A stretch of 54,625 nucleotides of DNA from a virus (IMGVR_UViG_3300033485_000017:1-54625); one strand, 5' to 3'. Shown: positions 3,052-53,443, counted from the stretch's first letter. Program-made: numbers and translations. The notes: generated from the letters alone by a model not told the origin.

Positions 3052-3064
3052 TTCCGACTCGGAA
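3052..3064. repeat. Dispersed palindrome TTCCGA(C/G)TCGGAA, copy 1 of 9
   Basis: Other copies at 9763, 13358, 21128, 30744, 33452, 42163, 45999 and 53279. Confidence 0.95.
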
Positions 3065-3146
3065 TCTTCACCGCCCAGGCATCCCGGCCGCCCCCGCCCC
3101 TGGATTTGTCCCAACCTGTGGCGCCCGCCGGTATACTGGATGTGTT

Positions 3147-5378
3147 ATGCGACCAACAATCTGCCGTTACGCCGCATTTTTGTCCGTTCTGCTGCTTGCG
3201 CCTTTGTCCGCACTAGGCATGAGCCGGGTTCAGGTCCCCTGCACGGTTGGAGGCAAGGTCGTTGTCTCGGGCGTCACCGCTTCCTCGACCCGCGTCATGG
3301 CGTCCTATCCTCAATGCACCGTCACCGTCTACAAGTCTGGCCTTCCTCACATCCCCGCCAACCTGGCAACGCTCTATTCTGACAACGGCACGCCGCCCAC
3401 TCCGATGGCCAATCCCTTCACCGCCGATGTGAACGGCTTCGGCTGGTTCTACGTCGCCGACGGGATTTACGATATTCAGATCTCCGGCGGCTCGGCACCC
3501 TCACTTCCCGCGCCCTACACCTACAGCGCGGTCAATGTCATGGATGCCTATGTGTTACAGAATGCTTCTGGAGCGGTGCCTTACCTGAAGGACACCCGGA
3601 TGAAGGAGAGTCCGCACGTCGGGGACTTTGGCGCTCTGTGCAACGGCGCTGCCGATGATACGGCCGCATTTATTGCTGCTGGGGCGTGGGGCCGGTCGTT
3701 CTTCGTCCCTTACGGCACATGTTTGGTCAAGTCCCAGGTTGTCCTGACGGGTGTGGGGCAGCAACTGAACTGCGCTGGAATGGGCGGAGTATTCGGCGGC
3801 GCTTCCCAAACGGTCATCAAAGCCGCCGCTGGAGCCGACGCGACAGTCACCAATGCGACGACCGGCTCCATCATCAAACTATCCGAGGATGGCCAGTCTG
3901 TCAGAGGATGCGAGGTTGATGGCAACAGCATCGCCGCTTACGGCATCCTCGCCCAGAATGCCGCGCGCTCTGTCGTCGAGCATACTTACGTCCACAACGC
4001 TGTCTATGACGGCATTCTGCTCTATGCCTCCAACCACCTGGATAACAACAACTTGTTCACTTACATCAACACTAACTCGTCTTACAATGGCCGCGACGGG
4101 TTCTCGCAGACCGCCGAGACTAACTCCGGTAACCAGGTCAAATATCTGAATGTGGATGCGGTCGGAAACGGGCGTGACGGACTGCGCGTGGACGGCTACG
4201 GCGCAAGTATCGATGGCGGCAACTTCGCTGCAAACACCAACTGCGGCATTACCCTTGGCACGACTGCCGCCTCGCCCGGCGCGACTTCGCCCTTCATCAT
4301 GAATCCGACCGTCGAAGCCAACACTGTCGGCCAGATCTGCGAGGGCGGCGCTGGATTTGGCAACTCCCACGGCATCATCTTCACTTACAAGAACAACCAG
4401 CCGACCGACTTCTACCCTAACAACAGCCACTACAACTGGTTCATGTCTGACTACGGCGGCGTCATTATTCAGGTCGGCTCCTCCTACAGCCCAACCGACA
4501 ACATGTTCACTGTCCAATCCAACACGAACTCCGATCCTAGGATTGCCGTCAATTACGAGGGCCGGCTGAAGCTGTACCCCAATGCCACGACTGGCGTCAC
4601 TGCCGACGACAATGCTTACATCTACCCGCTGAAGGGCGGTGGCGTGTTCCCCTACGATGGCGGCTTCGGCGCCCTGGTGCTCCAGTCCCGTTCGAGTGCC
4701 GACCGGCCGATCCAACTGATTACCGGTTCCACTCCCACTGCCGCGCTGACGGCATTCGGAACCGGCCGCGTGGCTATCTCCCCAACCTCCCAAACGGACA
4801 ACGGTGCTAACTTACAAGTGACCGGCACTGGCACTTACTCGGGCGATCTGAGCGTCGGCGGCACGGCGGTCCCCGGAACCCTCAACAGCGCTGCCCGCGT
4901 CCTGGAGATCAAGGGCTCTGGCAGCTCAGCCGCGACCCCAGTCATGCTGCGCCTCTGGCCCCGCAGCGGCGGCGGATATGACGTTGACTCCCCGGCAGTC
5001 ATTTCGACATTCCTGACCGGCTTGCGGGAAAATGAGATATGGTCTAACTCCAACTACTTACTAGGGGTGACTAAGACGACCGGTGGCGTGACTTACACTC
5101 AGTCCAACTTACTGGCCAATAACGCGCTGTTAGTAACAAGCGGCGGCCGTGTCTTGGTTGGTACTGGTCTATCCACGGATTCCGGGGCTGTGCTGCAAGT
5201 ATCCGGCAAATATGCGTTTTCGATGGTCGGGGACACGTCCGCCAACTTGGGCCTCCCCCCTGGCGACACGACTATTACGTGGTGCACCAACTGCGCCCCT
5301 AGCACCAACCCCTGCACGGCCGGTTCTGGCGCGCTTGCTATTTCAAATGGCGCTGGTTCAAACTGGAGATGTCTATGA
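3147..5378 (+). CDS. Tailspike/depolymerase-like protein (pectate-lyase-like beta-helix) with N-terminal signal-peptide-like sequence
   Basis: NPFTADVNGFGWFYVADGIYDI head-binding-like segment, DFGALCNGAADDTAAF motif, Asn/Gly-rich beta-helix repeats. Confidence 0.8.
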   Translation: MRPTICRYAAFLSVLLLAPLSALGMSRVQVPCTVGGKVVVSGVTASSTRVMASYPQCTVTVYKSGLPHIPANLATLYSDNGTPPTPMANPFTADVNGFGWFYVADGIYDIQISGGSAPSLPAPYTYSAVNVMDAYVLQNASGAVPYLKDTRMKESPHVGDFGALCNGAADDTAAFIAAGAWGRSFFVPYGTCLVKSQVVLTGVGQQLNCAGMGGVFGGASQTVIKAAAGADATVTNATTGSIIKLSEDGQSVRGCEVDGNSIAAYGILAQNAARSVVEHTYVHNAVYDGILLYASNHLDNNNLFTYINTNSSYNGRDGFSQTAETNSGNQVKYLNVDAVGNGRDGLRVDGYGASIDGGNFAANTNCGITLGTTAASPGATSPFIMNPTVEANTVGQICEGGAGFGNSHGIIFTYKNNQPTDFYPNNSHYNWFMSDYGGVIIQVGSSYSPTDNMFTVQSNTNSDPRIAVNYEGRLKLYPNATTGVTADDNAYIYPLKGGGVFPYDGGFGALVLQSRSSADRPIQLITGSTPTAALTAFGTGRVAISPTSQTDNGANLQVTGTGTYSGDLSVGGTAVPGTLNSAARVLEIKGSGSSAATPVMLRLWPRSGGGYDVDSPAVISTFLTGLRENEIWSNSNYLLGVTKTTGGVTYTQSNLLANNALLVTSGGRVLVGTGLSTDSGAVLQVSGKYAFSMVGDTSANLGLPPGDTTITWCTNCAPSTNPCTAGSGALAISNGAGSNWRCL

Positions 5379-5701
5379 GAACCGTCTCAGCAATAGCCTT
5401 TGTCTTCGCAGTGGTGGCCTTAAGCTTCTGCCAAACCCCTGCCCCATCCCCCGCCAAGCCCAAGCCTATCCCAATCGAGCGTCAGGAAGTTCTGTCCCGC
5501 CTCATGATCCGCTACCAGGCCCTTCAGATCGACGCTCTGCGCATCGAGCGCGACCTCGCCGCGGCGCAACAGGCGGTCCAGTCAGAACTCGAATCCCTGC
5601 GCCGGGAATACGACGCCCCGAACTGTGAACTGACCATCCATAAGGTTTGGCAATGCCCTGCCCCGGCCGCCGCGCCCCTTCCGGCCAAACCTGCAAACTG
5701 A
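5375..5701 (+). CDS. Signal-anchored coiled-coil protein (spanin-like or fibre chaperone)
   Basis: ATGA overlap with the upstream gene; hydrophobic N-terminus, heptad region, Pro-rich ends. Confidence 0.6.
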   Translation: MRTVSAIAFVFAVVALSFCQTPAPSPAKPKPIPIERQEVLSRLMIRYQALQIDALRIERDLAAAQQAVQSELESLRREYDAPNCELTIHKVWQCPAPAAAPLPAKPAN

Positions 5702-9719: not shown

Positions 9720-10618
9720 TTACACGACCTTTTCACGTCTCCGGCAACTCCCTGCTCCCATTTTCCGACTCGGAAGAATCACTCCAGGCCGACCCTCGGG
9801 GCATTGTCTGGATGTTCGAGGAGCCCATTCCCCAGGCCCAGTACATCATGGGTTGTGACGCTTCTGTCGGCATTACCGGCTGGTCCCGCGCTACCTCCAC
9901 TGACGGCGACCACAAGATTGACAACGGCGCCATCGAGATTTTCCGTGTTGATGCGATCAAACGCCTATTGACCCTCAAGGACGGTTCCCCCGACATCGAC
10001 CCTGTGACCAAGCTCCAGAAACACATCTATCGGGACTTGCAGGTCTGCGAGTTCGCCGCCCCTGTCGATGCTGTGGACATCGCCCGTGTCGCCAATGTCC
10101 TCGGCCGCATCTACGCCGGTAACGCCGAAGACCAGTGTGAACTCATCTTGGAGTCCTACCCTGGCCCTGGAATGCTCACGCTCCAGGAATTAATGCGACT
10201 GGGGTATATGAACCTGTGGCAGTGGGAGCGGATCGCCGATGGAGTGGCTGAGCAGACGCCCCGGATCGGCTGGTACTCAGGCCGGGAAACGCAGAAAATT
10301 CTGTGGTACCGGTCGCGCCGCCACCTGATGGAGCGGAAGGCCAAAGTCCTATCTCCCTGGCTGCTGGATGAGTACCGCTCCGCTGTCATCGACATGAGCA
10401 AGTTGCGCGGCGTGGCCGGCGGTGGCGCTCACGATGACCGGATGCAGGCAGCAAACATGGCCTTCTGGGCAGGGCATCAGTGGACCTACGACCCCGAGCG
10501 CACGAATGAGCCCGTCACCCTATCCCCGGCAATCGAGCCCCAGCGCATGGCACCCGTCCTGGGCGAGTACAAGTCCTATAGGGATGCCTGGGTCGATGCG
10601 GTGGAGGAGTGGGAATAG
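9716..10618 (+). CDS. terL: Terminase large subunit, RNase H-like nuclease half
   Basis: YIMGCDASVG, ILESYPGPG and HDDRMQA acidic motifs; ATG 9716 overlaps the MTase stop. Confidence 0.8.
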   Translation: MITRPFHVSGNSLLPFSDSEESLQADPRGIVWMFEEPIPQAQYIMGCDASVGITGWSRATSTDGDHKIDNGAIEIFRVDAIKRLLTLKDGSPDIDPVTKLQKHIYRDLQVCEFAAPVDAVDIARVANVLGRIYAGNAEDQCELILESYPGPGMLTLQELMRLGYMNLWQWERIADGVAEQTPRIGWYSGRETQKILWYRSRRHLMERKAKVLSPWLLDEYRSAVIDMSKLRGVAGGGAHDDRMQAANMAFWAGHQWTYDPERTNEPVTLSPAIEPQRMAPVLGEYKSYRDAWVDAVEEWE

Positions 10619-13330: not shown

Positions 13331-13477
13331 CCCCTGCGCGTGGCTCCCGGCCCAAGATTCCGACTCGGAATATTCCCCCTACTTTCCAAACTTTCACCTA
13401 GAAACTCCTTCCCCTTCTAGGACTTACGTTGACATTCATGCTACCATCCACTGTGAAGGTAGGTTTTGTAAAGCAGC

Positions 13478-30246: not shown

Positions 30247-30798
30247 GTGTCCACCTCCAAGAACCCGGCTATCGAGTTTCTGCCTCCGCCAGATGCAACC
30301 CCCACAGACGCCCCAGAGGAATCCGAGAATTCCAGCACGGCCCCTGTGCAGTACCGTGTCCTGACCCAGGAGGAGGTTGCATCGCTGGTGCCTATATTTG
30401 ACCAGTTTGGCGGGTCCATGCCCGACCCGAACTCCTCGTTCTTCCTCGGCGCCGTGGCTGGCGGGGAAGTGGTGGGATTCCTGGTGGTCCAGTTGGCTGT
30501 CCATGCCGAACCTCTGTGGGTGCGTGCGGACTACAAGCACATCATGCGCCCGCTTATCCGTGCCACCGAGGAGCAGATTGCCCGGAATTGCGGACCGGGC
30601 AGGCATGTGGACGTGTTCGCGTTCGTGCCGCCGGGCAATGTGGCACGGACGGTGCAGGAAGTGGCATCGATGCGGGTTGAGCCGTGGATGGTGTTGTCCA
30701 AGCGGGTGGGGATGGAGCTGGTCGAGCCCAAGGTGGACGAAGATTCCGACTCGGAAAAACCGGAAGCTGGCGGAGATCCTGAGACGAGGGTGAACTGA
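30247..30798 (+). CDS. GNAT-fold-like protein between tail and ejection genes
   Basis: GEVVGFLVVQLAVHAEPLWVRADY pattern; GGAGG RBS. Confidence 0.55.
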   Translation: MSTSKNPAIEFLPPPDATPTDAPEESENSSTAPVQYRVLTQEEVASLVPIFDQFGGSMPDPNSSFFLGAVAGGEVVGFLVVQLAVHAEPLWVRADYKHIMRPLIRATEEQIARNCGPGRHVDVFAFVPPGNVARTVQEVASMRVEPWMVLSKRVGMELVEPKVDEDSDSEKPEAGGDPETRVN

Positions 30799-37426: not shown

Positions 37427-37431
37427 GATTC

Positions 37432-43772: not shown

Positions 43773-43812
43773 TTCACCTAGAAAGTCTGTCACAAATCTT
43801 GGGTGCAGTCAA
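43773..43812 (-). promoter_or_regulatory. Promoter of the glycan operon with operator-like motif over the start site
   Basis: TTGACT-N17-CAGACT (with TG extension), followed directly by TTCTAGGTGAAG. Confidence 0.65.
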
Positions 43813-44354: not shown

Positions 44355-44717
44355 TCAGCCGCTGATGACCGGAAGTTCGCACATCCAGAACCCTTCCCCT
44401 TCCTTCGTCCCTGCCTCGATCTGCGCGGCCGTGACCCCTGCCTCGACCAGCAGTGCCTTGTCCAGCATCTTCCTTCCACCCTGCCAGCGCACGATGCTGC
44501 ACAGATCCCCAGACCGGACTCCCATGTTGCCCTCGGAGGCCAGCCCTTCCTGCTGCACCATCTCGACGATCTCCTTCTTGACTGCCTTCAGCCGCTCCTC
44601 TGCCTGCTTGAGCGAGTGGGCCTCACGCAGAAGGGCTGTCAGTTTGTTGCGTTTGTCCGCCGCCAAGTCATCCACGTTGGGCAGCGTCAATAGTGTGTGG
44701 TCACTTCGTTTTGCCAT
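44355..44717 (-). CDS. Hypothetical coiled-coil phage protein
   Basis: AAGGA upstream; 120 aa. Confidence 0.7.
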   Translation of the reverse strand: MAKRSDHTLLTLPNVDDLAADKRNKLTALLREAHSLKQAEERLKAVKKEIVEMVQQEGLASEGNMGVRSGDLCSIVRWQGGRKMLDKALLVEAGVTAAQIEAGTKEGEGFWMCELPVISG

Positions 44718-44759
44718 AAATCCGTTTCCTTTCCTTACTCCAACTAAATCCGCTTTTCG

Positions 44760-46265
44760 TCATTTACTCCACCTCTTCATCAGTCCACCATCCGACTTTA
44801 TGGGCACTCTGCAATAAGACCTCCCGGTAGCCTTATCTATCAGCACGTTGTTCATGACCTCTTCAAGTAGTGCTTCCACCGTATCCCCGTCGTCTTCAGG
44901 GCATTCTATAAGTAACTCATCATATATTGACATTTCTGGAAAAGCAGAAATGCCGTACTCCTTCATTTGCTGGAGCCGCTCCCCGGATTCCCCCATCGCC
45001 AGTTTCATGATGTCCGCGCTGTAGCCCTGAATGCCGTGGTTTGCCGCCTGCCTGACCCCAGCCTCCTGAATGTAACTGTGGCAGGACCTCACCTCGGGAA
45101 CCCGCCTCACACGCCCCGCGGCGGTCCAGACAATTCCGAACCGCCGGGCCTTCTCCTCCTCGGCACGGAGATACTTCCTGACCCGCGGATAGAGGGCAAA
45201 CCACTTCTCGATAAACTCATCACACCACTGCTCGGTCATGTAGTCCGGCATGGGTGTGTTGGCTGTAGCGAATGTGACTGCCATTAGGTCCAGCAACCCA
45301 GCCCCGGTAATCCCGTACGCAGTCGCAAACGTACAATTTTTCGCTGGGGCACGATAGAGCAGTTTGCCTGGACCTTTGGATACTTCCTCGACAGTGACTC
45401 CGGGAAACACGCCTATTGCTGTGCGCACGTGCACGTCTCCATCCTCAGCATAGATCTGGATTAGGGTTGGATCGCCCGACCGGTCGGCCATTAGCCTGAC
45501 CTCAATTTGTGCCCAATCCCTCTGTGCGATGACGTGGCCTTCTGAGGCGATGAACCCATTACGGATCTCCTGCCCCAGCTTAGTCCGAGTGGGGATGTTG
45601 CCTAGGTTCGGGCTCTTGCTGGCAGTCCGCCCAGTCGCCGTTCTGGTCGTAAGGAGTTGGGTGTGGACTCGCCACTCGTCTGTCCAGTGGTGACGGCCGC
45701 AGAGTGGGCAGTCCTTGCCGTGTGGGTGGAACCGGGCCTGGCGTGGCATCGACCGTGCATAGGTCCCATCCAACTTGGAGCACTCCCGGTATTCCAGGAT
45801 CAGCGGCACGACCGGATGTTCGCGCTTCAGTTGTTCGAGCGTCTTCTTTCCAGTCGAGAGCCTCTCGCCGCCCTTTGTCTTCTTGACCTTGACACCCTTG
45901 GTGAACTGCAACCCCAGCACATCGTAAAGTAGTTCGGCGATCTTGGCACCGGATTCGACGTTGAAGGGAACGTCCTCGGTGGGGGGAGTGAGGGAATTTT
46001 CCGAGTCGGAAGATTCATCATCAGGCGGGAGGGAGACCTCGACGAACCGGTCCAGACTTTCAGGAGGGATCTCGTTCAGAATGTCACAACGCAGGTCGGC
46101 CATCCGGGATTGGAGCTTGGAGGACAGGGCTGCGAAATAGGGAACGTCGATCCGCATTCCGAACCGCATCATCTGGCGCAACATGGGAACCTGGAGCAGG
46201 TCGAGGCGCCGGATGTTCTCGGGGTCGGGGCGGTCCGGGAGGGTGATGTTGCCGTAGAGGGGCAT
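44760..46265 (-). CDS. polA: Family A DNA polymerase, polymerase domain only
   Basis: TATGRTASKSPNLGNIP; motif A DWAQIEVR; motif B RAPAKNCTFATAYG; motif C IYDE. Confidence 0.93.
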   Translation of the reverse strand: MPLYGNITLPDRPDPENIRRLDLLQVPMLRQMMRFGMRIDVPYFAALSSKLQSRMADLRCDILNEIPPESLDRFVEVSLPPDDESSDSENSLTPPTEDVPFNVESGAKIAELLYDVLGLQFTKGVKVKKTKGGERLSTGKKTLEQLKREHPVVPLILEYRECSKLDGTYARSMPRQARFHPHGKDCPLCGRHHWTDEWRVHTQLLTTRTATGRTASKSPNLGNIPTRTKLGQEIRNGFIASEGHVIAQRDWAQIEVRLMADRSGDPTLIQIYAEDGDVHVRTAIGVFPGVTVEEVSKGPGKLLYRAPAKNCTFATAYGITGAGLLDLMAVTFATANTPMPDYMTEQWCDEFIEKWFALYPRVRKYLRAEEEKARRFGIVWTAAGRVRRVPEVRSCHSYIQEAGVRQAANHGIQGYSADIMKLAMGESGERLQQMKEYGISAFPEMSIYDELLIECPEDDGDTVEALLEEVMNNVLIDKATGRSYCRVPIKSDGGLMKRWSK

Positions 46266-46663
46266 CAGGTCCGATCTATGTAGATCCGTTCCAGGACTAT
46301 CTTTTGCTTGAGGCTAACGAATCCCGTTAAGTTCCACTGCTCCGCCACGCTGTCAATGAATCCGCGTTCCCAATCAGTCAACCTCGTGCTAACTACACGG
46401 ATGTTCTCAATCCACCACGAGACGGTCTCAGCCTCGTCAGGTCCCTTCAAGGAAGATGGCCGTCCTGGGGGCAGGTGTGTATCGACAGAGCGCGTGCCCT
46501 GTGCAAGCTGCTTGGCAAAGGCCCGGCGCTCGGAGCAGAGCGCAGGATGGCGTTTGAGGAACCGGTTCTTGTCTTTCGGTTGGCAGCAGGCTCCGCACTT
46601 GCATTCCGCACTACCATCTGGCTTCACGGTGACACTCATGGTTTTCCTTTCCTTTGCCGTCAC
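46265..46663 (-). CDS. Hypothetical protein (Cys cluster; LTDWERGFIDS..SLKQ C-terminal domain)
   Basis: Coupled to both neighbours. Confidence 0.65.
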   Translation of the reverse strand: MTAKERKTMSVTVKPDGSAECKCGACCQPKDKNRFLKRHPALCSERRAFAKQLAQGTRSVDTHLPPGRPSSLKGPDEAETVSWWIENIRVVSTRLTDWERGFIDSVAEQWNLTGFVSLKQKIVLERIYIDRT

Positions 46664-47094
46664 ACGATGAGGATGCCCTTCATGTAGGGCACGACAGTGA
46701 TATCCAGGTCTAACACCCGGCCGTGGGTTTTAGCGGACTTGATTGTGAAGTCGGCAAATCCCCCAAAGTGGGTGTCCTTCTCCTGTGTCAACCGGAAGAA
46801 ATCCTCCCGGCCTAGATAGACCTTTTTCGGTGTTCGGTAACCCGCGGCGCTTATTTGTTCTCTCGCTTCGAGAATCAAGCGAAATACAAGCAGATCCGGG
46901 TCGAAATGTACTACACGTAATACTGGCTGTACATCGATGAAGGGATGTGCTGCCCGCGTCTGTTTGAGGAACCACCAGCACACTTTCTGAAGCCAAGCCC
47001 ACCGCCCTTTGGGATGGATTTCCCAAGCCGGTGTGGCTACGGGCATCGTGCCAGCCCTTTCCGTGAAGCACATGGACATCAATTGGGGTAACAT
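46660..47094 (-). CDS. Hypothetical protein
   Basis: AAGGAGG RBS. Confidence 0.65.
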   Translation of the reverse strand: MLPQLMSMCFTERAGTMPVATPAWEIHPKGRWAWLQKVCWWFLKQTRAAHPFIDVQPVLRVVHFDPDLLVFRLILEAREQISAAGYRTPKKVYLGREDFFRLTQEKDTHFGGFADFTIKSAKTHGRVLDLDITVVPYMKGILIV

Positions 47095-47114
47095 CGGTCC
47101 TCCTTCTGGGACAG

Positions 47115-47279
47115 TTAGCGTCCCTTAGACAGCAGCAGTTTCCATGCCTGTAACTGGGACTGTGGCAGCAGTGGGTCAACGGCGAAAACTGTCTTACGCA
47201 GCGCCGGTGGCACAGGCTTGGACTCAGGTTTGGGTTTGCGCTTCGGTTGTGCCGGGGCCAGTTGTAACTTGGGCTTCAT
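47115..47279 (-). CDS. Small basic Pro/Lys-rich protein
   Basis: ATGA overlap at 47276-47279. Confidence 0.5.
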   Translation of the reverse strand: MKPKLQLAPAQPKRKPKPESKPVPPALRKTVFAVDPLLPQSQLQAWKLLLSKGR

Positions 47280-47638
47280 GCAGTCCGCCTCCCCGGCGCT
47301 TGCTTCGTCAGTGCCTTCCGCATCTCTGGATCGTTCTTCTCCATCTCCATACCTACACAGAGCCCGATGTGGAAGAATGCCTCCAGGCCGGCACATAGAA
47401 CCTTAGCCAACTTGCACTCCTCTTCCACAAGTAACTCCGGTGCCGCTTCCCCAAACAACAACCTCGCCATATGCGCGGCAACGTTCATCTGGGAGACGAA
47501 GTACTTCTCGTTCTTACGCATGTCCTCGACGAATGGGTAGCGCTCCTCTAAGTCGGCGATGACTTCCTTGGCCTTCTCAAAGTCCGAGGTTATCCTGCTT
47601 CCCACGATCAGATCGAACGCTTGGTCGAAGGTTTTCAT
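47276..47638 (-). CDS. Hypothetical protein
   Basis: Start at ATG 47638, next to the upstream stop. Confidence 0.6.
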   Translation of the reverse strand: MKTFDQAFDLIVGSRITSDFEKAKEVIADLEERYPFVEDMRKNEKYFVSQMNVAAHMARLLFGEAAPELLVEEECKLAKVLCAGLEAFFHIGLCVGMEMEKNDPEMRKALTKQAPGRRTA

Positions 47639-47639
47639 C

Positions 47640-48257
47640 TCATGCCCACCTTTCGTGTTTTGTAAGTACCCTTCGCATTTTCTCCAGAGCTTCTTTGTGC
47701 AGACGGCAAATGGTACTCTCACTGCACTGGTGCACACGTGCGATCTCGGCTATTGTAAGCTGGTCCCAGTAATATTCCTCAATGATTGTCCGCAGCCTGG
47801 GGCGTAGGGAGTTCAATGCGACGGCCGCGTCCTGGTGCTGCTGGGTAATCTCGTCCGGTCTGGGGTTCGGATCGCATTGACTCAGACTGACGTGAAGCTC
47901 CACACTTTGGGGGAACACTAGACGTGCCCAGTCACGTGGTCTCTGTATTCCATGTAGACCACCCGGCCGATACTGGCGCTTGTAATCCACAATGGCCTTG
48001 CGCATCCGTATCCGAATGAACTTAGTCTGCTGGAGCAGTTGGAAACGGCGGTCCAAGCGGGACAATGCAGTTACATACCCTTTCAGAGATTCCGAGATAG
48101 CGTCCTCCCATTCGTTGGGCCGGACATGCAACACACGGGCTAGCATGTGCGCCAGATCCTTTGCCTTATCATAAGGGAGCAATTCCTCGATTGTGTTAGT
48201 GCCATCCCCGTTGGCGGTGGCAGCACAGATAGCAGTGGTAGCAGTGGCAGAACTCAT
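47640..48257 (-). CDS. Sigma70-family (FliA/WhiG-like) RNA polymerase sigma factor
   Basis: Region-2-like RIRMRKAIVDYKR; region 4 LNSLRPRLRTIIEEYYWDQLTIAEIARVHQCSESTICRLHKEALEKMR. Confidence 0.8.
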   Translation of the reverse strand: MSSATATTAICAATANGDGTNTIEELLPYDKAKDLAHMLARVLHVRPNEWEDAISESLKGYVTALSRLDRRFQLLQQTKFIRIRMRKAIVDYKRQYRPGGLHGIQRPRDWARLVFPQSVELHVSLSQCDPNPRPDEITQQHQDAAVALNSLRPRLRTIIEEYYWDQLTIAEIARVHQCSESTICRLHKEALEKMRRVLTKHERWA

Positions 48258-49705
48258 GCGACTCTCCATTCCTCTTCAACAATCCGCTCGCGTTCGCGCT
48301 CCAGCCAGAGCGCCAGCTTTCCGGTCCGGTCGGCATCAGAGCATCCATACCGCACCGCTTCCTCGATGGGCACATGCACAATGCTCTTCCTCGGCATCCT
48401 CCCCACCACCTGCTCCAACCCCTCCAGCCACGGCCTCCCCAGCAGTCTGCACTTCTCCTCGCCTTTCTGCCATTTCGGAGCCTGCCATGGGTCGTAGTCG
48501 GAGCCGTCCGAGAGCTTAGACATGATGCGGCGCAGGACAGCCTCGGCCTCGTGGGGCTTCGTGTGAAGCAGTTCTTTGCGGTGAGACTTGCCACAAACTG
48601 GGCAACCCTTGCCGATTGGATGTGTCACTATGGACTGCATGTGCTCGGAGACGTGGGCGAGGGACTCGGCCAGCCACCCGTCCAGGGCAGCCTTGGAATG
48701 CGGCACCACGGTCTCGTTATAGCTGGTCATCCGGTGGCCAGAGGTGCGGTAAGTGGCAGCTTTCAGACCTTGAGGGAGGTTGCCCAAGTGGTATAGTTCC
48801 TGCATCGTATCGCGGAATTCATGCGGGCTGGCACCTGCCTCTTCCAGCGGCCCCAGATCGGCTGGGGCGTTGTGCAGCGTGCACTTGCCGCCCCACTCCC
48901 ATTCGAAAGCCAGAGCAAAGGCTTCCAGAAGGCGCCGGTCTTTGAACAGGATCATGCGTGCCACGCCCGGCGCTACAGAGTACTGGATGGACCACGGCCG
49001 CCCCTCGTCGCTCTCCGTATCAATAGCCAGATACTCGTACAGGTCAGAGACGGGATGCCGCAGCGAGCGCAGCACGTCGGCTTCGTCAGTCAGTAGCTTG
49101 TAGTCTGTCACCAACAGATCGCTTGACTCCACCGATGGGGGTTGCCACTTACCCCTGAGCCACATGCCAAACCGCTCCCAGTCCTCCAGCAGCGGCGTCA
49201 TGTAGCGCGTCTCGTGCATCCCAGCAGCCGGGTGATACATTGGCACAACCCACCCGCTCCATCCCCCCAACCCTTCGCAGTTCTCCACCCTTCGTGGGAA
49301 CCCGTGCTCCAGCTCCAGGTCCACATCCCCCGCGAGCGAACATGCGACCGCGCCACAGAGGATGATGATTTCCGGCCACACGGCCCAGATCTCTTCCCAT
49401 AGGTGGTTCTTTGCACACGAGGACACGAGCGCCGCCGCCGGCCGCACGTCCACTCCGTTGCGCTCCTGCCTGCACTGGACACAGTTAGTAGCGAAGACCT
49501 CGCCGCGGGTAAGCCCGGCTAAGTGCAGGTACGTTTCGTCGAGTTCCTGCCCGGCCCGGCCGCAGAATGGGATGCCGCTTTTGTCCTCCCAGACCCCAGG
49601 CCCTTCTCCCACAGCCATGATGCGCGCGTCGAGCGGCCCATCAGGAAAAACCTGCCGGTGATCATCGGGGCAATTGGGGCAACGGGAGTAAGTCCAGGGT
49701 TGCAT
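48254..49705 (-). CDS. Family-4 uracil-DNA glycosylase domain fused to a PolA-type 3'-5' exonuclease (N-terminal half of a split polymerase)
   Basis: VGEGPG, PFCGRAG, TNCVQC and YHPAA; ExoI IDTE, ExoII HNAPADL, ExoIII YGCSD. Confidence 0.88.
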   Translation of the reverse strand: MQPWTYSRCPNCPDDHRQVFPDGPLDARIMAVGEGPGVWEDKSGIPFCGRAGQELDETYLHLAGLTRGEVFATNCVQCRQERNGVDVRPAAALVSSCAKNHLWEEIWAVWPEIIILCGAVACSLAGDVDLELEHGFPRRVENCEGLGGWSGWVVPMYHPAAGMHETRYMTPLLEDWERFGMWLRGKWQPPSVESSDLLVTDYKLLTDEADVLRSLRHPVSDLYEYLAIDTESDEGRPWSIQYSVAPGVARMILFKDRRLLEAFALAFEWEWGGKCTLHNAPADLGPLEEAGASPHEFRDTMQELYHLGNLPQGLKAATYRTSGHRMTSYNETVVPHSKAALDGWLAESLAHVSEHMQSIVTHPIGKGCPVCGKSHRKELLHTKPHEAEAVLRRIMSKLSDGSDYDPWQAPKWQKGEEKCRLLGRPWLEGLEQVVGRMPRKSIVHVPIEEAVRYGCSDADRTGKLALWLERERERIVEEEWRVA

Positions 49706-50073
49706 CAGAACGGCACTCCGTCATCTTCCTTCTGGAAAAGGACCCGATCCGGAGGTGGGCGGTGCTTCGGATTGTATCCCGTGAACTTTCCGTCTATCCG
49801 TTTTTGGTTGCAAGTAAGTGCCGAATGGAATGCGGTGGACAGCATCAACAGGTTATCCCCGGAATTGTTGGTCTTGTCGAAGTCTAGGTGGTGCACCTCG
49901 TAAGGCCATGGGAGTAAGATGCGAATGGAGTAAGGCGTCATTGCCACGTTATCCTCGACGACCTTGCGGTGCACATACTGGCCACGCAAGTCCTTCGGCG
50001 AGGTGTAGCGTAGATGCCCGGCTTTAGTCTTCTGAACCCCCTTACCATAGAAGTTCAGCTTCTGCTCTCGCAT
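49705..50073 (-). CDS. HNH endonuclease
   Basis: YVHRKV..EVHHLDFDKTNNSGDNL..H. Confidence 0.8.
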   Translation of the reverse strand: MREQKLNFYGKGVQKTKAGHLRYTSPKDLRGQYVHRKVVEDNVAMTPYSIRILLPWPYEVHHLDFDKTNNSGDNLLMLSTAFHSALTCNQKRIDGKFTGYNPKHRPPPDRVLFQKEDDGVPF

Positions 50074-50825
50074 TGCGTGACCGCCTGCACAATGTTCTCA
50101 GCCGTCTTCTGGCCTATGCGCATCCCCTTGATTCCAAGCCAGCGCTCTACATCCGCGTTGGCCATATCCCTAGCGGACCTGAAGTGCGGCGCCAAGTCCA
50201 ACCACCGTGAGTCAATCCCAGGCAAATCCGCTAGCCATTTCTCCAGCAATGTCGGATCGTGCCGCATCGCCGCCTTGGTTCCCTTCCTGGGCCTCTGCGG
50301 TACCGGTGCATAGATCGACCGGCTGACCGACGTGTGCTCCTCCCAGGGCTTCTGCCACCAGTGGAACCGATCCACCACGGCCGCGCACGTCTCTTCCTGA
50401 TCCTGTGTCCGCCACACGTGCAGGTTGGTCCAGTCCCGTGTTGTGGCCTCCAGCGAACACAGGAACGAATCCACTTCCGAATACCGCACCTGGCCCCGGA
50501 TGGTGTGCCACCCGCCGTTCCTGTACTCCACCATCCCAGACTCGCGCTGGCGCCGCCAGATCCCCTCGACCAGCACATAGATCTCGTCATAGGTCTGGGT
50601 CATGCCAATGAGTTGGGAGCCTGCCAGGCGGTGGTCACGCATCGAGTTGACCAAATCCTGGATCGTCTTACGTTCAACCCCGACGAGGATTGTGCCATCG
50701 GCGCCGCAACCGGTGAATTCGAAGTCCGAGGCCAGTTCGCCATCTGCGATGCGGGCATCGGCTCCCAGATTGCGGAGCCCGTCCAGCAACTCCCGGCTTC
50801 CCGTTCTTGGGTCAACCAGGATCAT
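50055..50825 (-). CDS. ERCC4/XPF-type nuclease with HhH, candidate junction resolvase
   Basis: ILVDPR, DF, GVERKTIQDL; LPGI and IGQKTA HhH segments. Confidence 0.8.
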   Translation of the reverse strand: MILVDPRTGSRELLDGLRNLGADARIADGELASDFEFTGCGADGTILVGVERKTIQDLVNSMRDHRLAGSQLIGMTQTYDEIYVLVEGIWRRQRESGMVEYRNGGWHTIRGQVRYSEVDSFLCSLEATTRDWTNLHVWRTQDQEETCAAVVDRFHWWQKPWEEHTSVSRSIYAPVPQRPRKGTKAAMRHDPTLLEKWLADLPGIDSRWLDLAPHFRSARDMANADVERWLGIKGMRIGQKTAENIVQAVTQCESRS

Positions 50826-51049
50826 GCCACGTGGCCTGTGTGCAGTTGCTGTTCCAGACGGTCGAGCGTGTCCTCGGCTTCCAGGATGACCAGTCCAGGG
50901 TCCACATTCATGCCGCAGCCGGTCCAGCAGCGCATCCGGGCGACCTCCAAGTACCGGCGTAGCAACCAACTACTACCGGCACTGGTGCACCGATTCGCCA
51001 GCCGGTGCACGAACAATACCTCTTCCTGTGTGGTGTAAGGGGGTTCCAT
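50822..51049 (-). CDS. Hypothetical protein
   Basis: AAGGAG RBS; ATGA coupling. Confidence 0.6.
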   Translation of the reverse strand: MEPPYTTQEEVLFVHRLANRCTSAGSSWLLRRYLEVARMRCWTGCGMNVDPGLVILEAEDTLDRLEQQLHTGHVA

Positions 51050-51060
51050 GGGACGCTCCT

Positions 51061-51288
51061 TCAGGCCGGCAGAGGGTTGCCGTCCGGGTCTTCCGGGTCC
51101 AGGAACACGGCACGCTCAACGTCGATATCCCCGACCAGCTCAGAGGCGTGCAGCTTCATCTCTGCCTTGGCTAGTGCCGTGGCGTCAACCAGCGAAGGTG
51201 CCTCGAACGTGCCGCCGTATTCCAGTTCGGCCCGCAAAATGATATGGTATTTGCGCACGTTAGTCCTCTTCCGCCGGTAAGTGGGCAA
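51061..51288 (-). CDS. Hypothetical protein (start may be GTG 51258)
   Basis: GAGGA before the internal GTG. Confidence 0.55.
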   Translation of the reverse strand: MPTYRRKRTNVRKYHIILRAELEYGGTFEAPSLVDATALAKAEMKLHASELVGDIDVERAVFLDPEDPDGNPLPA

Positions 51289-52000
51289 CGTGGTTCGGGC
51301 CTATCTCCGGGTCCACTTCGCGCAGCAGCCCGGCGACCGCCTTTGCAACTGCTTCATCGTGCGTATAGGGGGGCTTGCGGTGCCCCTCTGGGCGCATGGG
51401 GAGATTGTTGAAGTCGATCCCGGCGATGAGTCGGGAAATGACTGACCCGAATGAGTCAAGCGGGATGCGGTAGCCACGTTGGTAGAACTTCAGAATACGC
51501 AGCATGGAGCCGCCCGCCTCCTCCTCCCGTACAGGAGACGTATAGATCAGCCGCTTTGCCGCTAGGTCCGGGTAGAACCTGTTATCACAGGTGGATTTCC
51601 ACAGCGGCAATCCCTCGTGCTGAACCAGGATCGGATCTGCCCAGAAGGCCGCCCTGGAAATGGTGAAGTCAAACGAGTTCAGGGCATTAATGGGATGAGA
51701 GAAGACCCACCTGTGAATGATCTGGATGGGGTACCGGTAGCCCAGCACCGTAATCGCGTTGTCCGTGGGGATGAGCCTCCAGTCTGGATGCTCACTCAGC
51801 AGCTCCCCGGCGTACTGCTTGGCGCTCTCCTTGGATGCCACAAACAAATCAATGTCGTTGATTTCCTCGCCAGAAACCGCAGCCCGAATGAATCCACCAG
51901 CGACAAACACTTCCATGGGATGCCGCTTCAGCAGTTCGAGCACTGACTTGGGGGCAAGGCGCAGTGCCCTGCCTAAGTCATGCCAAGTAAGTTCTACCAT
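51260..52000 (-). CDS. Nucleotidyltransferase, tRNA-NTase/poly(A) polymerase-like head domain
   Basis: VAGGFIR..NDIDLFV..FDFTI..RILKFYQRGY. Confidence 0.75.
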   Translation of the reverse strand: MVELTWHDLGRALRLAPKSVLELLKRHPMEVFVAGGFIRAAVSGEEINDIDLFVASKESAKQYAGELLSEHPDWRLIPTDNAITVLGYRYPIQIIHRWVFSHPINALNSFDFTISRAAFWADPILVQHEGLPLWKSTCDNRFYPDLAAKRLIYTSPVREEEAGGSMLRILKFYQRGYRIPLDSFGSVISRLIAGIDFNNLPMRPEGHRKPPYTHDEAVAKAVAGLLREVDPEIGPNHVAHLPAEED

Positions 52001-52011
52001 TACCGGTCTCC

Positions 52012-52827
52012 TTATTCCCCCGGCCGCAGCAGGGCATGTAAGTTGGAGTAAGTCACCGACGCTCCAGTCAACACGCCCTGCTCGCCAGCCAGCCCGCTGT
52101 TGTCCTGACTCTCATAGATGTCCAGTCCGAACCTGTCCACCCAAGTCTCGTCTTTGCCTAACTTCCTGGTTCGGTCGTGCGTCATCCGCACAAGCGTTGT
52201 GGTCGTATATCCCAGGTGGGGAGGACCATCCGGCTTAGTGAACCCGGTCCGGTTGTCCTGTTTGTACTCATCCCGTTCCCAAAATGTGATGAGAAGGGTC
52301 TTGTGTGAGAGGCCGTCCATCAGGTCGGTCCAGTCCTGTTTGGGCGGCCCCCACACCCGCGACCGGCCCACATCCTGTTTTTTGCCGAAGTGCGCAAACG
52401 AGATCCAGTCCCATATTTGGGTGCCTGTCTCGATGATGATGGGGTCGATCTCCGGCACCCTGCCCAACTCCACCACCGCCTTGAGCAATCTCTGGTAAGC
52501 GGCGGTGTAGATGGACTTGATCTTGTTGTTGTCTCCGTCGCTCTCGCGGTCGAGCGTGGCGATCTGGAGTGACTCAGCTTGGGTAATGAAGTCGTCCTTG
52601 TTGATGAATGGGAACTCGTACCCCAGGTCGTTCGATACTTCCCGGACGGTCTTCCGGGTCTTCCGGTCCCCGACAATCCAACCGGGCCGCTTGCCGCGCT
52701 CGGCAGCCCATTCGGTCGCCGTGGCACAGAGCCGCGTCTTGCCGCTGCCCTCGCCGCCGAAGATGCCGATACAAGCCGCCTCCCGGCCGCTGAAATCACA
52801 GGTGAATCCCGCTGGTGCACTAATCAT
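52012..52827 (-). CDS. P-loop ATPase (AAA_24/Sak4-like)
   Basis: GIFGGEGSGKT Walker A; next to exonuclease and SSB-like genes. Confidence 0.75.
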   Translation of the reverse strand: MISAPAGFTCDFSGREAACIGIFGGEGSGKTRLCATATEWAAERGKRPGWIVGDRKTRKTVREVSNDLGYEFPFINKDDFITQAESLQIATLDRESDGDNNKIKSIYTAAYQRLLKAVVELGRVPEIDPIIIETGTQIWDWISFAHFGKKQDVGRSRVWGPPKQDWTDLMDGLSHKTLLITFWERDEYKQDNRTGFTKPDGPPHLGYTTTTLVRMTHDRTRKLGKDETWVDRFGLDIYESQDNSGLAGEQGVLTGASVTYSNLHALLRPGE

Positions 52828-53443
52828 CGAGAGTTCCTTCCTCCGGTTTCACTTGGTCTTTTGCCTTCTGCAACACGCCCCACCAGGACTCGACTTCGTA
52901 GGTCTCAAATTCAACCACGGTGGAGGTAACTCTAGGCTGGTACGGTCTGCTGTAGTCCCCAAGCACCCATAGAACGTCCCACTGAACCTGAGTGATGCCT
53001 CCACTGAGAGCGCAATAGGCAAGGCCCTGCTTGAGGAACAGCCAGCATTCAGCAACGCTTCGGATCTTCATAGTCGTCCGTTTGCATTCCCAAATGCGCA
53101 TCGGTTCGCAGAGCAGCAGTCCGTCCGGGGTGCCCAAGATCCCATCCCGCTCCCACTCGCCGGGCTGCCAGAGCAGTTCATCCTCGGGATACAGACTGGC
53201 ACAGGACTCCTCCCAGAACGCTCCCAATGCTGGCATCCATGGATAGTTATCTCGGCTGAACTTCTCGAATGGGAAATTTTCCGACTCGGAATCTTGCATC
53301 TTGCCGGCAGCCACTGCTAGATGTTTGTTGATCGCTTGGACGTGCACCCCGGCGGAGCGGGGACAGGAAGGTCTTGGCCTCAATGTCCTCCGCTCCATGC
53401 GGGAAGGAGTCAAGCGCAGTTGTGCCGTCCTAAGGACCCTCAT
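52820..53443 (-). CDS. PD-(D/E)XK exonuclease-like protein
   Basis: GTPDG..WECK..QGLAY. Confidence 0.75.
   Translation of the reverse strand: MRVLRTAQLRLTPSRMERRTLRPRPSCPRSAGVHVQAINKHLAVAAGKMQDSESENFPFEKFSRDNYPWMPALGAFWEESCASLYPEDELLWQPGEWERDGILGTPDGLLLCEPMRIWECKRTTMKIRSVAECWLFLKQGLAYCALSGGITQVQWDVLWVLGDYSRPYQPRVTSTVVEFETYEVESWWGVLQKAKDQVKPEEGTLDD

What the first reader, a model, noticed from the sequence alone, without database searches (positions are those of the whole stretch)
3052..53291. Nine perfect copies of palindrome TTCCGA(C/G)TCGGAA spread across the genome, mostly inside genes
Seen at 3052, 9763, 13358, 21128, 30744, 33452, 42163, 45999 and 53279 (gaps 2.7-9.6 kb), with AT-rich flanks such as AATT-core-GATT or AAGA-core-TATT. 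Seven lie within CDSs on both arms and in more than one frame (SDSE/SESE versus LPTRK), so selection acts on the DNA, not the protein. My rough chance expectation is about 0.001 copies per window. The centre is GASTC, a GANTC site. Known analogues: parS, matS, SlmA/Noc sites and mycobacteriophage stoperators; this sequence matches none I recognise. Inference: a genome-wide binding grid for a dimeric protein (partitioning, compaction, protection, or titration of a host factor), possibly methylation-sensitive. The count was made by eye and may miss copies.
Basis: partly seen in the sequence, partly recalled or inferred. Interest (0 to 1): 0.85.

Follow-up and report, generated by a model that had tools for sequence, protein, structure and literature searches.

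The report
Phage-wide grid of ParB-type docking sites
Nine identical 13-letter DNA palindromes are spaced evenly along this uncultured phage genome; they are most likely docking sites for the phage's own ParB/KorB-type DNA clamp, an arrangement known from plasmid RK2 that I did not find described for phages.

Summary
There are nine exact copies of TTCCGASTCGGAA against about 0.0015 expected, and none in 100 shuffles. Selection acts on the DNA: all 6 S[DE]SE peptides in the called genes are spelled by the motif. Synonymous shuffling gives 0.044 copies in coding sequence against 7 observed.

Relatives carry their own 6-1-6 words: TGTAATSATTACA (17-36 copies), TTCCRANTYGGAA (34), TTCTGASTCAGAA (6) and TCCAASTTGGA (5). 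Some sit at the same codons, with both Ser codons changed symmetrically. Spacing is more even than random.

The word follows a replication/early gene module, not the virion genes. A phage with unrelated structural genes but this module has 25 copies. A complete relative with the same structural genes but another module has none.

That module encodes a ParB-like protein with no ParA partner. Its AlphaFold model scores pLDDT 89.9, and the best Foldseek matches are ParB, Noc and KorB. Of seven near-complete genomes, six have both gene and grid and one has neither.

The window itself lacks the gene: the contig ends inside the helicase gene that lies next to it in relatives.

Closest known system: KorB with its twelve 13-bp OB operators on 60-kb RK2. 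Binding is inferred, not shown. This scan has noted similar grids in other phage genomes.

The parts
3052..3064 (.). Palindrome copy 1 (TTCCGACTCGGAA). Intergenic, 83-155 nt upstream of the 3147/3219 tailspike-like gene.
   Evidence: Relatives have a site of their own motif upstream of the orthologous gene: G003 at 18518 and G002 at 8919.
9763..9775 (.). Copy 2, in codons 16-20 (F-S-D-S-E) of gene 9716-10618.
   Evidence: The same codons in G004 carry TTCTGAGTCAGAA.
13358..13370 (.). Copy 3. Intergenic, 28 nt after the portal gene stop and 22 nt before the promoter-like TTCACCTAGAA at 13393.
21128..21140 (.). Copy 4, in mid-gene 20529-21857 (F-S-E-S-E).
   Evidence: The same codons in G003 carry TTCCGAATCGGAA. 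Motif-less G001 has CTCCGAATCGGAA there.
30744..30756 (.). Copy 5, in the C-terminal tail of gene 30247-30798 (D-S-D-S-E).
   Evidence: G003 carries TTCCGAATTGGAA in the same tail.
33452..33464 (.). Copy 6, 52 nt into gene 33400-34911. It is read in a different frame (P-T-R).
42163..42175 (.). Copy 7, in the glycosyltransferase-like gene 41572-42300 (minus strand; S-S-D-S-E).
   Evidence: G004 has its TTCTGACTCAGAA copy (2044, 68 nt into orthologue 1498-2118) where the protein alignment places D-S-D-S-E opposite S-D-S-E. The codon-level regex check found no match for G004 in this gene.
45999..46011 (.). Copy 8, in an acidic linker of the family A DNA polymerase gene 44760-46265 (minus strand).
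53279..53291 (.). Copy 9, near the start of the PD-(D/E)XK-like gene 52820-53314 (minus strand).
44355..54428 (-). Replication/early module whose presence tracks the palindrome across phages. It holds a small protein (44355-44690), PolA (44760-46265), a UDG-domain protein (48254-49705), an ERCC4-like nuclease (50055-50825), a PD-(D/E)XK-like protein (52820-53314) and a 308-aa protein (53502-54428).
   Evidence: In the HMM table the first five families occur in all nine genomes G000, G002-G004, G006 and G008-G011 and are absent from G001, G005 and G007. The 308-aa protein was found only in G000, G003, G004 and G011.
54559..54625 (-). Last ~22 codons of a helicase gene cut by the contig end. In G004 the ParB-like gene lies directly upstream of this helicase, and in L181 1.9 kb upstream of its last codons. 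In G003 three small genes lie between the two. The ParB-like gene is therefore expected just beyond the window.
   Evidence: tblastn of the G004 and G003 helicases matches only here. Synteny with G004, G003 and L181.

Best explanation
The nine palindromes are the cis sites of a ParB-family system carried by the phage. A partner-less ParB/KorB-type protein, encoded in the replication/early module, binds each 13-bp word as a symmetric dimer.

By analogy with KorB on its OB operators and ParB on parS, it would load there as a nucleotide-gated clamp and move onto neighbouring DNA. An evenly spaced set of sites would then cover the whole ~60-kb chromosome.

The word and its reader change together between lineages. 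The module imposes its word on whatever virion genes it travels with.

Shown here:
- The sites are real and under DNA-level selection.
- They are evenly spaced, and the word is lineage-specific at orthologous positions.
- They are inherited together with the module.
- The module's protein has a ParB/KorB fold.

Inferred:
- This protein is the binder.
- It clamps and slides.
- The biological output is genome-wide regulation or silencing, or marking of the phage's own DNA, rather than partition.
- The G000 copy of the gene lies just off the contig end.
For: 1. DNA-level selection on a symmetric word.
- 9 copies against ~0.0015 expected.
- 6 of 6 S[DE]SE peptides are spelled by the motif, and 0 of 500 synonymous shuffles reach the observed count.
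- The centre is C or G without strand preference: G002 has 11 C and 12 G when oriented by gene direction (my count). This fits duplex recognition by a dimer, not RNA.

2. Lineage-specific variants.
- G002 23, G003 34, G004 6 copies.
- G006 25, G008 33, G009 36, G010 17, G007 3.
- G011 5.

3. Same codons, different word.
- G000 TCC GAC TCG against G004 TCT GAG TCA in gene family 9716.
- G003 TCC GAT TCG against G004 TCT GAC TCA in family 52820.
- Both Ser codons switch symmetrically while the peptide stays the same.

4. Module swaps.
- G006 (complete) shares only the early module with G002 and has 25 sites throughout unrelated structural genes.
- G008 and G010 have a third structural module and 33 and 17 sites.
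- G001 (complete) shares G000's structural genes at 43-83% identity, has a different early region, and has no grid.

5. A ParB-like gene tracks the grid.
- A six-frame HMM search finds it in 8 of 12 genomes. All 8 have grids.
- Of the 7 records that are at least 90% complete, 6 have both gene and grid and 1 has neither.

6. The protein belongs to the ParB family.
- The A1 profile hits Spo0J 1vz0 at E 1e-6, and Noc.
- The two phage protein groups align at 97% probability, E 1e-10.
- The AF2 model has pLDDT 89.9.
- Foldseek top matches are M. xanthus ParB-CDP 7bnk (E 9e-9), Noc 7ol9, and the KorB-KorA-DNA complex 8qa9 (target TM 0.67, rmsd 3.0).
- HTH_ParB scores 23.5 bits against a cut-off of 22.6 in the G006 protein.
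- 10 of 63 homologues carry precomputed PF02195, and four are named ParB-type (Spo0J/ParB/RepB) by their source.

7. Linkage on small contigs.
- L183 has the exact G000 word 660 bp upstream of its ParB-like gene.
- L181, L187 and L190 have palindromes of the TTC/TTG type, and L184 an unrelated CTGGTA palindrome, within 1 kb upstream. That makes 5 of 8 contigs with a perfect 6-1-6 palindrome there.
- All 5 TGTAAT-type genomes have a site 108-781 nt upstream of the gene.

8. Literature analogue.
- KorB's OB is a 13-bp consensus (the oligo core TTTAGCGGCTAAA).
- Twelve sites are mapped over ~60-kb RK2, conserved in sequence and position in R751, from a few bp to more than 1 kb from promoters.
- Sources: passages of PMC5577506, PMC11790492 and PMC13768133.
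Against: - The window itself encodes no ParB-like protein. Its presence in G000 rests on synteny and on the record being 86% complete.
- Pfam ParB_N is over its curated cut-off in 0 of 12 genomes; the best is 17 bits against 26.3 in G002. For P0009 the HTH_ParB and KorB domain hits are below cut-off.
- The GERR-type box keeps only one arginine (G-G-x-R), so CTP binding is uncertain.
- Six other gene families track the motif equally well: helicase, PD-(D/E)XK, ERCC4, UDG-fusion, PolA and a small unknown protein. Presence or absence alone does not single out ParB.
- I could not derive a residue-to-base recognition code from the few protein-motif pairs available.
- L180 has a ParB-like gene but no family-type palindrome in 9 kb of upstream sequence.
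- G007 has 3 sites but no ParB-like gene on its 51% fragment.
- Sites are not tied to the promoter-like motif. In G000, 2 of 7 lie within 150 bp (P = 0.04); G003, G004 and G011 are not significant. A simple operator model does not fit.
- No binding, clamp or CTPase activity was tested.
Confidence: 0.62

Rival explanations
1. The sites are bound by a different protein of the same replication/early module, and ParB-like is only a passenger. Candidates are the 308-aa protein 53502-54428, the small conserved protein 44355-44690, a small HTH protein, the sigma-like protein 47640-48257, or one of the nucleases.
For: Six other families show the same presence/absence pattern as the motif. The small protein family 44355-44690 is in every motif genome and has no known fold: its AF2 model has pLDDT 57.8 and the Atlas search returned only viral hypothetical proteins. 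The 308-aa protein has no family hit.
Against: None of these has a recognisable sequence-specific dimeric DNA-binding domain, except the sigma region 4 protein. That protein was found only in G000 and so cannot explain the relatives. The 308-aa family was not found in the TGTAAT-type genomes by HMM. ParB-family proteins are the class known to read 13-16 bp palindromes at many dispersed sites.
Confidence: 0.15
2. The palindromes are sites for a host protein, such as a nucleoid organiser, a Noc/MatP/SlmA-like factor or a global regulator. Each phage lineage would copy the word of its own host.
For: The motifs differ between phages whose G+C ranges from 49 to 61%, which suggests different hosts. 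The hosts are unknown, so their genomes could not be tested directly.
Against: The word follows the phage's early module, not its virion and adsorption genes. The 17-mer AGTGTAATCATTACACT occurs in 43 stretches among 185,579 species genomes, against about 70 expected by chance (my arithmetic). The only contig with more than one copy is a phage contig related to G008/G010. G001 keeps the structural genes and has no grid.
Confidence: 0.07
3. The element works as a nucleic-acid structure or enzyme target rather than as a docking site. Options are an RNA hairpin (terminator, processing or stability signal), a cruciform, a nick or cleavage site for the module's ERCC4/HNH/PD-(D/E)XK nucleases, or a methylation/restriction-related GANTC word.
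For: In AT-richer relatives the sites sit between genes, just upstream of ribosome-binding sites. The all-or-none conservation (9 perfect copies, 0 with one mismatch) resembles enzyme recognition sites. Nucleases are encoded in the co-inherited module. The centre is GASTC in G000 and G004.
Against: Predicted RNA hairpins are weak: -3.9 to -5.8 kcal/mol for 7 of 9 copies, against a background median of -3.3. No T-runs follow the sites. The central base shows no preference relative to transcription direction. The GANTC centre is missing from TGTAATSATTACA and TTCCAANTTGGAA. No Tet/JBP dioxygenase was found in 0 of 12 genomes.
Confidence: 0.08

Closest known systems
KorB and its OB operators on IncP-1 plasmid RK2
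   Same: Both use a 13-bp palindrome. The OB oligo core is TTTAGCGGCTAAA, which is 6-1-6 with a central G (passages of PMC11790492 and PMC5577506); that OB also occurs with a central C is my recollection. Twelve sites lie over a ~60-kb mobile genome, the same density as 9 per 54.6 kb here. They are conserved in sequence and position in a distant relative, and most are far from promoters (PMC13768133).
   Different: This is a phage, not a conjugative plasmid. No ParA/IncC partner was found (0 of 12 genomes). No KorA-like partner was identified. The C-terminal domain is helical in the model; that KorB's differs (SH3-like) is my recollection and was not tested. The Pfam KorB domain hit is only E 0.032. 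The word differs between lineages. Binding and CTP dependence are untested.
Noc and its NBS sites; chromosomal ParB and parS
   Same: These are partner-less (Noc) or canonical ParB-family clamps that read palindromes scattered on a replicon. Noc and ParB structures are among the top fold matches.
   Different: NBS and parS are 14-16 bp and belong to cellular chromosomes. parS sites cluster near the origin and work with ParA. Both of these points are from my own knowledge and were not tested here.
17-bp dyad repeats of Cluster O mycobacteriophages (Corndog)
   Same: Corndog has 34 copies of TGTTCGGNNNCCGAACA spread through a ~70-kb phage genome. The arms are invariant. 14 copies are intergenic, 10 lie near 5' ends of genes and 10 lie inside genes. 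There is no orientation bias and most are not at promoters. The phage also encodes a ParB-like domain protein (gp90) and glycosyl/methyl-transferases, and the function of the repeats is unknown (passages of PMC4351075).
   Different: The layout is 7-3-7, not 6-1-6. The paper does not link the repeats to gp90. gp90 is only remotely similar to the proteins here (hhalign probability 8%, E 0.004, N-terminal domain only).
Stoperators of Cluster A mycobacteriophages
   Same: Many copies of a 13-bp word are dispersed through a phage genome, often in short intergenic gaps, and are read by one phage protein. This is recalled, and is also contrasted in PMC4351075.
   Different: Stoperators are asymmetric, oriented with transcription, and bound by the immunity repressor. 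The sites here are perfect palindromes with no orientation.
ParB-dependent phage thymine dioxygenases (5mYOX-ParB)
   Same: A phage-encoded partner-less ParB homologue acts on phage DNA (abstract and section 8 of PMC13229309).
   Different: Those ParBs lack an obvious DNA-binding domain, and the enzymes prefer trinucleotides. No Tet_JBP family gene was found in 0 of 12 genomes here.

Membership tests
ParB-family protein with dispersed palindromic sites (KorB/OB, Noc/NBS, ParB/parS type) | Short palindromic DNA word in multiple copies on the replicon, far above chance. | tested here: met
   9 copies against ~0.0015 expected. 5 to 36 copies in nine related records.
ParB-family protein with dispersed palindromic sites (KorB/OB, Noc/NBS, ParB/parS type) | Cognate ParB-family gene on the same replicon. 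| tested here: inconclusive
   Not in the window. The record is 86% complete and ends inside the helicase gene that adjoins the ParB-like gene in G004 and L181. The gene is present in 8 of 12 related records, and in 6 of the 6 near-complete records that have a grid.
ParB-family protein with dispersed palindromic sites (KorB/OB, Noc/NBS, ParB/parS type) | ParB/Srx N-terminal nucleotide-binding fold. | tested here: met
   This rests on fold and profile evidence. Foldseek gives E 9e-9 to ParB-CDP 7bnk on a pLDDT 89.9 model, and the profile hits Spo0J at 1e-6. By contrast, Pfam ParB_N is over its cut-off in 0 of 12 genomes, and the GERR box is reduced to G-G-x-R.
ParB-family protein with dispersed palindromic sites (KorB/OB, Noc/NBS, ParB/parS type) | Helix-turn-helix DNA-binding domain of the ParB/KorB type. 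| tested here: met
   HTH_ParB scores 23.5 bits against a cut-off of 22.6 in the G006 protein. The model superposes on KorB in 8qa9 (target TM 0.67) and on the KorB DNA-binding domain 1r71 (target TM 0.61).
ParB-family protein with dispersed palindromic sites (KorB/OB, Noc/NBS, ParB/parS type) | Specific binding of the protein to the word, and CTP-gated clamping. | not testable with these tools
   Needs EMSA, DAP-seq and CTPase or cross-linking assays.
Classical ParABS partition system | ParA ATPase partner. | tested here: not met
   PF13614 and PF01656 give 0 of 12 genomes; both families were found in all 14 control genomes.
Stoperator network (Cluster A mycobacteriophages) | Asymmetric site oriented with transcription. 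| tested here: not met
   The sites are perfect palindromes, and the central base shows no orientation bias.
GANTC methylation or restriction-modification target | The GANTC core conserved as the functional part. | tested here: not met
   Relatives' words lack GANTC (TGTAATSATTACA, TTCCAANTTGGAA). ORF 9216-9719 gives only a weak D12-class methyltransferase hit (E 0.0056, below cut-off).
Intrinsic terminator or structured RNA element | Stable hairpin, T-run, and dependence on strand. | tested here: not met
   Hairpins are -3.9 to -5.8 kcal/mol for 7 of 9 copies against a background median of -3.3. There are no T-runs.

The most novel reading that the evidence does not exclude
The grid is the loading lattice of a partner-less phage ParB clamp that coats the entire viral chromosome. 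Word and reader evolve as a private code for each lineage. The code is carried on a mobile early-gene module that rewrites its word into any virion-gene set it joins, even inside codons. Such a code would let a phage mark its own DNA, to silence it, shield it from nucleases or separate it from host and rival-phage DNA. It would act like an immunity specificity between related phages. If general, it would also explain the unexplained dyad repeats of Cluster O mycobacteriophages.
Probability: 0.22. Interest if true: 0.85.

Novelty: new variant of a known kind. Interest (0 to 1): 0.68.

Why it matters
Partner-less ParB-fold proteins are common on phages and other mobile elements, and their roles are largely unexplored (passages of PMC12704722).

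This case offers a concrete, testable pairing: a ParB/KorB-type protein and a 13-bp word tiled evenly over a whole phage genome. Natural module swaps and symmetric synonymous codon switches show that the word is read in trans and co-evolves with something in the module.

If binding is confirmed, three things follow:
- KorB-style long-range control, or whole-genome coating, would extend from plasmids to phages.
- The several cognate word-protein pairs would form a ready-made set for studying how ParB specificity changes.
- It would suggest a function for the long-unexplained repeats in Cluster O mycobacteriophages, which can be grown in the laboratory.

My literature searches did not turn up a paper describing such a phage grid. 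Earlier notes of this scan report similar grids in other phage genomes, so the arrangement may be widespread.

Tried and rejected
Searches that found nothing or added nothing:
- Megablast of 12 kb of the window against cultured phages: no match.
- Portal tblastn: only Tunturiibacter phages, at 21.7% identity.
- The 308-aa protein alone in viral contigs: no relative.
- The wide ParB alignment A4 in viral contigs: only the three records already known.
- A3 in genome contigs: none.
- P0009 against cultured phages: none.

Readings tested and rejected:
- ParA partner: PF13614 and PF01656, 0 of 12 genomes.
- Tet/JBP dioxygenase (5mYOX-ParB reading): 0 of 12 genomes.
- RNA hairpin reading: weak energies.
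- Operator next to the promoter-like motif TTCACCTAGAA: G000 has 2 of 7 within 150 bp (P = 0.04); G003, G004 and G011 are not significant.
- Fur/Zur-box resemblance of the TGTAAT word (recalled 7-1-7 layout): no Fur-family hit appeared among the proteins I scanned, and I did not pursue it.

Inconclusive attempts:
- Fold of the small co-inherited protein 44355-44690: pLDDT 57.8, too poor to search. The Atlas search returned only viral hypothetical proteins.
- Corndog gp90 against the ParB-like profile: probability 8%.
- A residue-to-base recognition code could not be derived from about nine protein-motif pairs.

Integrase: present in G001 and G011, in two pieces in G003 and G004, none in the TGTAAT-type genomes or in the window. 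Lifestyle is therefore unresolved.

Supplementary files of the papers were not opened. They may hold the full OB site lists.

Full report
**Observation.** None of 100 dinucleotide-preserving shuffles contained a copy. My own arithmetic from the base composition gives about 0.0015 expected. Allowing two mismatches adds a single place (26201), which is within chance. The copies are therefore all-or-none: nine perfect, none with one mismatch. The window is a complete IMG/VR virus record of 54,625 bp, rated 86% complete.

**Gene context.** I used my own simple gene caller, not a curated annotation.
- A rightward virion arm carries the large terminase, portal and major head protein.
- A leftward arm carries a sugar/methyl-transferase cluster and a replication module. 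The module includes family A DNA polymerase, a UDG-domain protein, an ERCC4-like nuclease, a Sak4-like protein, an HNH protein and a sigma region 4 protein.
- Seven of the nine copies lie in coding sequence, mostly near gene ends. Six are read S-D/E-S-E and one P-T-R.

**Selection is on the DNA.** All six S[DE]SE peptides in the called proteome are spelled by exactly the motif. 500 synonymous-codon shuffles gave a mean of 0.044 copies (maximum 1) against seven observed in coding sequence. Gaps between copies are more even than random: CV 0.38, P = 0.007; smallest gap 2.7 kb, P = 0.009.

**Relatives carry different words of the same design.** Portal-protein relatives were found in viral contigs, and five records were read in full. 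K-mer and palindrome counts gave:
- G002 (49% G+C): 23 perfect TGTAATSATTACA.
- G003: 34 TTCCRANTYGGAA.
- G004: 6 TTCTGASTCAGAA.
- G001 (complete) and G005 (52% complete): no enriched palindrome.

A scan with the 15-mer of the G002 word found further records: G006 with 25 copies, G008 with 33, G009 with 36, G010 with 17 and G007 with 3. G011 has five copies of TCCAASTTGGA at gaps of 10.6-13.2 kb.

In every genome tested, spacing is more even than random (CV 0.22-0.71). In the genomes with many copies the sites are strongly enriched between genes, for example 18 of 23 in G002 with 14% non-coding DNA, P = 7e-12. They typically lie just after a stop codon and just before the next ribosome-binding site. 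The central base is C or G with no bias relative to gene direction. This argues for recognition of the duplex by a symmetric dimer rather than a role in RNA. Predicted RNA hairpins are weak.

**Positional conservation with a concerted change of word.** At the same codons of orthologous genes each phage writes its own version.
- In gene family 9716, G000 has TTT TCC GAC TCG GAA and G004 has TCT TCT GAG TCA GAA.
- In family 52820, G003 has TAT TCC GAT TCG GAA and G004 has TAT TCT GAC TCA GAA.
- In family 20529, G000 and G003 have their words where motif-less G001 has a one-mismatch relic.

The peptide stays S-D/E-S-E while both serine codons switch symmetrically (TCC to TCT, TCG to TCA). That is what co-evolution of a palindromic site with its reader predicts.

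**The word travels with the early module.**
- G006 is complete and has terminal repeats. It shares no detectable structural genes with G002 but shares the replication/early module, and it has 25 copies of the G002 word throughout.
- G008 and G010 have yet another structural set and the same word.
- G001 shares G000's structural genes (43-83% identity) but has a different early region and no grid.

Iterated HMM searches show the families that track the motif: helicase, a PD-(D/E)XK-like protein, the ERCC4-like nuclease, the UDG-domain protein, PolA and a small unknown protein. The seventh is a ParB-like protein, linked by profile methods as described next.

**The ParB-like protein.** A 420-440-aa protein of the TGTAAT-type phages (alignment A1) hits Spo0J, Noc and ParB structures by profile (1vz0, E 1e-6). 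The G006 member passes the Pfam HTH_ParB cut-off. A 333-404-aa protein of G003, G004 and G011 is homologous along its full length (hhalign probability 97%, E 1e-10).

A six-frame HMM search finds the gene in 8 of 12 genomes, and all eight have grids. It is missing from G001 and G005 (no grid) and from the incomplete G000 and G007. Among the seven records at least 90% complete, six have both gene and grid and one has neither.

A database search gave 63 homologues, many on ~60-kb contigs. Ten carry precomputed ParB_N, and four are named ParB-type (Spo0J/ParB/RepB) by their source.

An AlphaFold model of one of them, P0009, has pLDDT 89.9. P0009 comes from contig L181, whose replication module is about 67% identical in DNA to G000's. 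Foldseek matches the model best to ParB-CDP, Noc and KorB. KorB in the KorB-KorA-DNA complex 8qa9 superposes best (target TM 0.67, rmsd 3.0).

Against clean family membership:
- Pfam ParB_N is over its cut-off in none of the 12 genomes.
- The KorB and HTH_ParB hits of P0009 are sub-threshold.
- The GERR box is reduced to G-G-x-R.

No ParA family protein was found in any of the 12 genomes.

**Where is the gene in G000?** The last ~22 codons of the helicase are the only match to that gene in the window, and they abut the right contig end (54559-54624, minus strand). In G004 and L181 the ParB-like gene lies directly upstream of this helicase, which lies directly upstream of the orthologue of 53502-54428. 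In G003 three small genes separate the ParB-like gene from the helicase. The gene is therefore expected about 1.5 kb beyond the window. This is an inference.

Independent support comes from metagenome contig L183, which has the exact G000 word 660 bp upstream of its ParB-like gene. Five of eight small contigs have a perfect 6-1-6 palindrome within 1 kb upstream of the gene. L180 is a counter-example, with none in 9 kb.

**Comparison with known systems.** KorB of plasmid RK2 is a ParB-family clamp with these properties:
- It has a 13-bp consensus operator (oligo core TTTAGCGGCTAAA).
- Twelve sites lie across ~60 kb and are conserved in sequence and position in R751.
- They lie from a few bp to more than 1 kb from the promoters they control.
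- Long-range action is explained by CTP-dependent sliding.

These points come from passages and one section of PMC11790492, and passages of PMC5577506 and PMC13768133. The design (6-1-6) and the density match this phage closely.

In phages, the nearest described phenomenon is the 34-copy 17-bp dyad repeat of Cluster O mycobacteriophages. Its function is unknown, and those genomes also encode a ParB-like domain protein that the authors did not connect with the repeats (passages of PMC4351075). That protein is only remotely similar to the ones here.

ParB-dependent phage thymine dioxygenases (PMC13229309) do not apply, because no Tet/JBP gene is present.

A survey paper reports that partner-less ParB-fold proteins are frequent on mobile elements and phages (PMC12704722).

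My three literature searches listed no paper describing a genome-wide ParB site grid in a phage. That is the extent of my claim that it is not in print.

**Host-factor rival.** The 17-mer form of the TGTAAT word occurs in 43 stretches among 185,579 species genomes, against about 70 expected by chance (my arithmetic). The only contig with several copies is a phage contig related to G008/G010 that was binned into a MAG. Together with the module swaps, this makes a host chromosomal word unlikely, though the true hosts are unknown.

**What the sites do.** Most copies are far from the promoter-like motif TTCACCTAGAA, so a simple promoter-proximal operator does not fit. Even tiling, tolerance of positions inside genes and the ParB fold point to loading sites for a protein that acts over distance. 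The output could be long-range silencing as with KorB, or coating and marking of the phage chromosome. It is unknown. Tyrosine recombinase genes in G001 and G011, and in two pieces in G003 and G004, leave the lifestyle open.

**Earlier notes of this scan.** After reaching this reading I looked at earlier notes. Several follow-up notes on other phage genomes describe dispersed palindromes paired with a partner-less ParB and name KorB/OB as the closest system. They are unchecked AI notes on other DNA and are not evidence for this case. They do suggest the arrangement recurs.

**Verdict.** The best explanation is a phage ParB/KorB-type site grid (confidence about 0.6). The binder is identified by co-inheritance, fold and analogy, not by experiment, and its gene lies outside the window.

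Noticed in passing
window 13393-13403 (+), 43773-43783 (+), 54498-54508 (-); one-mismatch copies at 2275, 2938, 7285 (-), 44084 (-): A second conserved word, TTCACCTAGAA, is always intergenic and is often preceded by TTGAC three bases upstream. It also occurs in G001, G003, G004 and G011. Unlike the palindrome, it stays the same between phages, so it is probably a promoter element. In G000 two copies flank the 77-aa gene 43809-44042.
   Followed up: partly
window 1-250: The contig starts in a tandem array of ~15-bp units (CGCCGCCGYGCCACA-like). This probably explains why the assembly broke there.
   Followed up: no
window 47640-48257 (-): A 205-aa protein with sigma-70 region 4 (Pfam E 4e-13) and a weak ECF-sigma match. 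By BLAST it was found only in G000 among the compared genomes.
   Followed up: partly
window 48254-49705 (-) and 44760-46265 (-): A 483-aa protein with an N-terminal uracil-DNA-glycosylase-superfamily domain sits near a 501-aa PolA that lacks an obvious exonuclease part. The pair is conserved in all motif-bearing genomes.
   Followed up: partly
window 9216-9719 (+): A 167-aa ORF lies between the two terminase-related genes 7945-9219 and 9716-10618, which are adjacent in G001. It gives only a weak D12-class adenine methyltransferase hit (E 0.0056, below cut-off). My gene caller skipped it.
   Followed up: partly
window 34901-43526 (-): A run of glycosyltransferase-like (GT2, GT4), methyltransferase and radical-SAM genes, partly shared with G001, G002, G003 and G004. 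Its target (surface glycan, virion or DNA) is unknown.
   Followed up: no
G003 18518-19981 (loci L031 and L022): Six palindrome copies are clustered in a ~2-kb stretch with no called gene, between the divergent arms of G003. It may be a control or origin region.
   Followed up: no
G003 24833-25096 and 25758-25979; G004 16903-17160 and 16410-16631: The tyrosine recombinase matches fall in two separate pieces in both phages, while G001 and G011 have one intact ORF. One G004 palindrome (16341) lies in the C-terminal piece.
   Followed up: no
G002 32779-33462 (L028:12779-13462): A 227-aa phage protein ends in a PEP-CTERM sorting motif (Pfam E 6e-7). This hints at a host with the PEP-CTERM/exosortase system.
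   Followed up: no
L204 and L236 (one 45-kb contig of a MAG whose record title reads Patescibacteria group bacterium): This contig carries 9 TGTAATSATTACA copies in 16 kb, and its structural genes are 50-90% identical to G008/G010. It is therefore a phage contig binned into a MAG, and the MAG's label is weak evidence at best for the host.
   Followed up: partly
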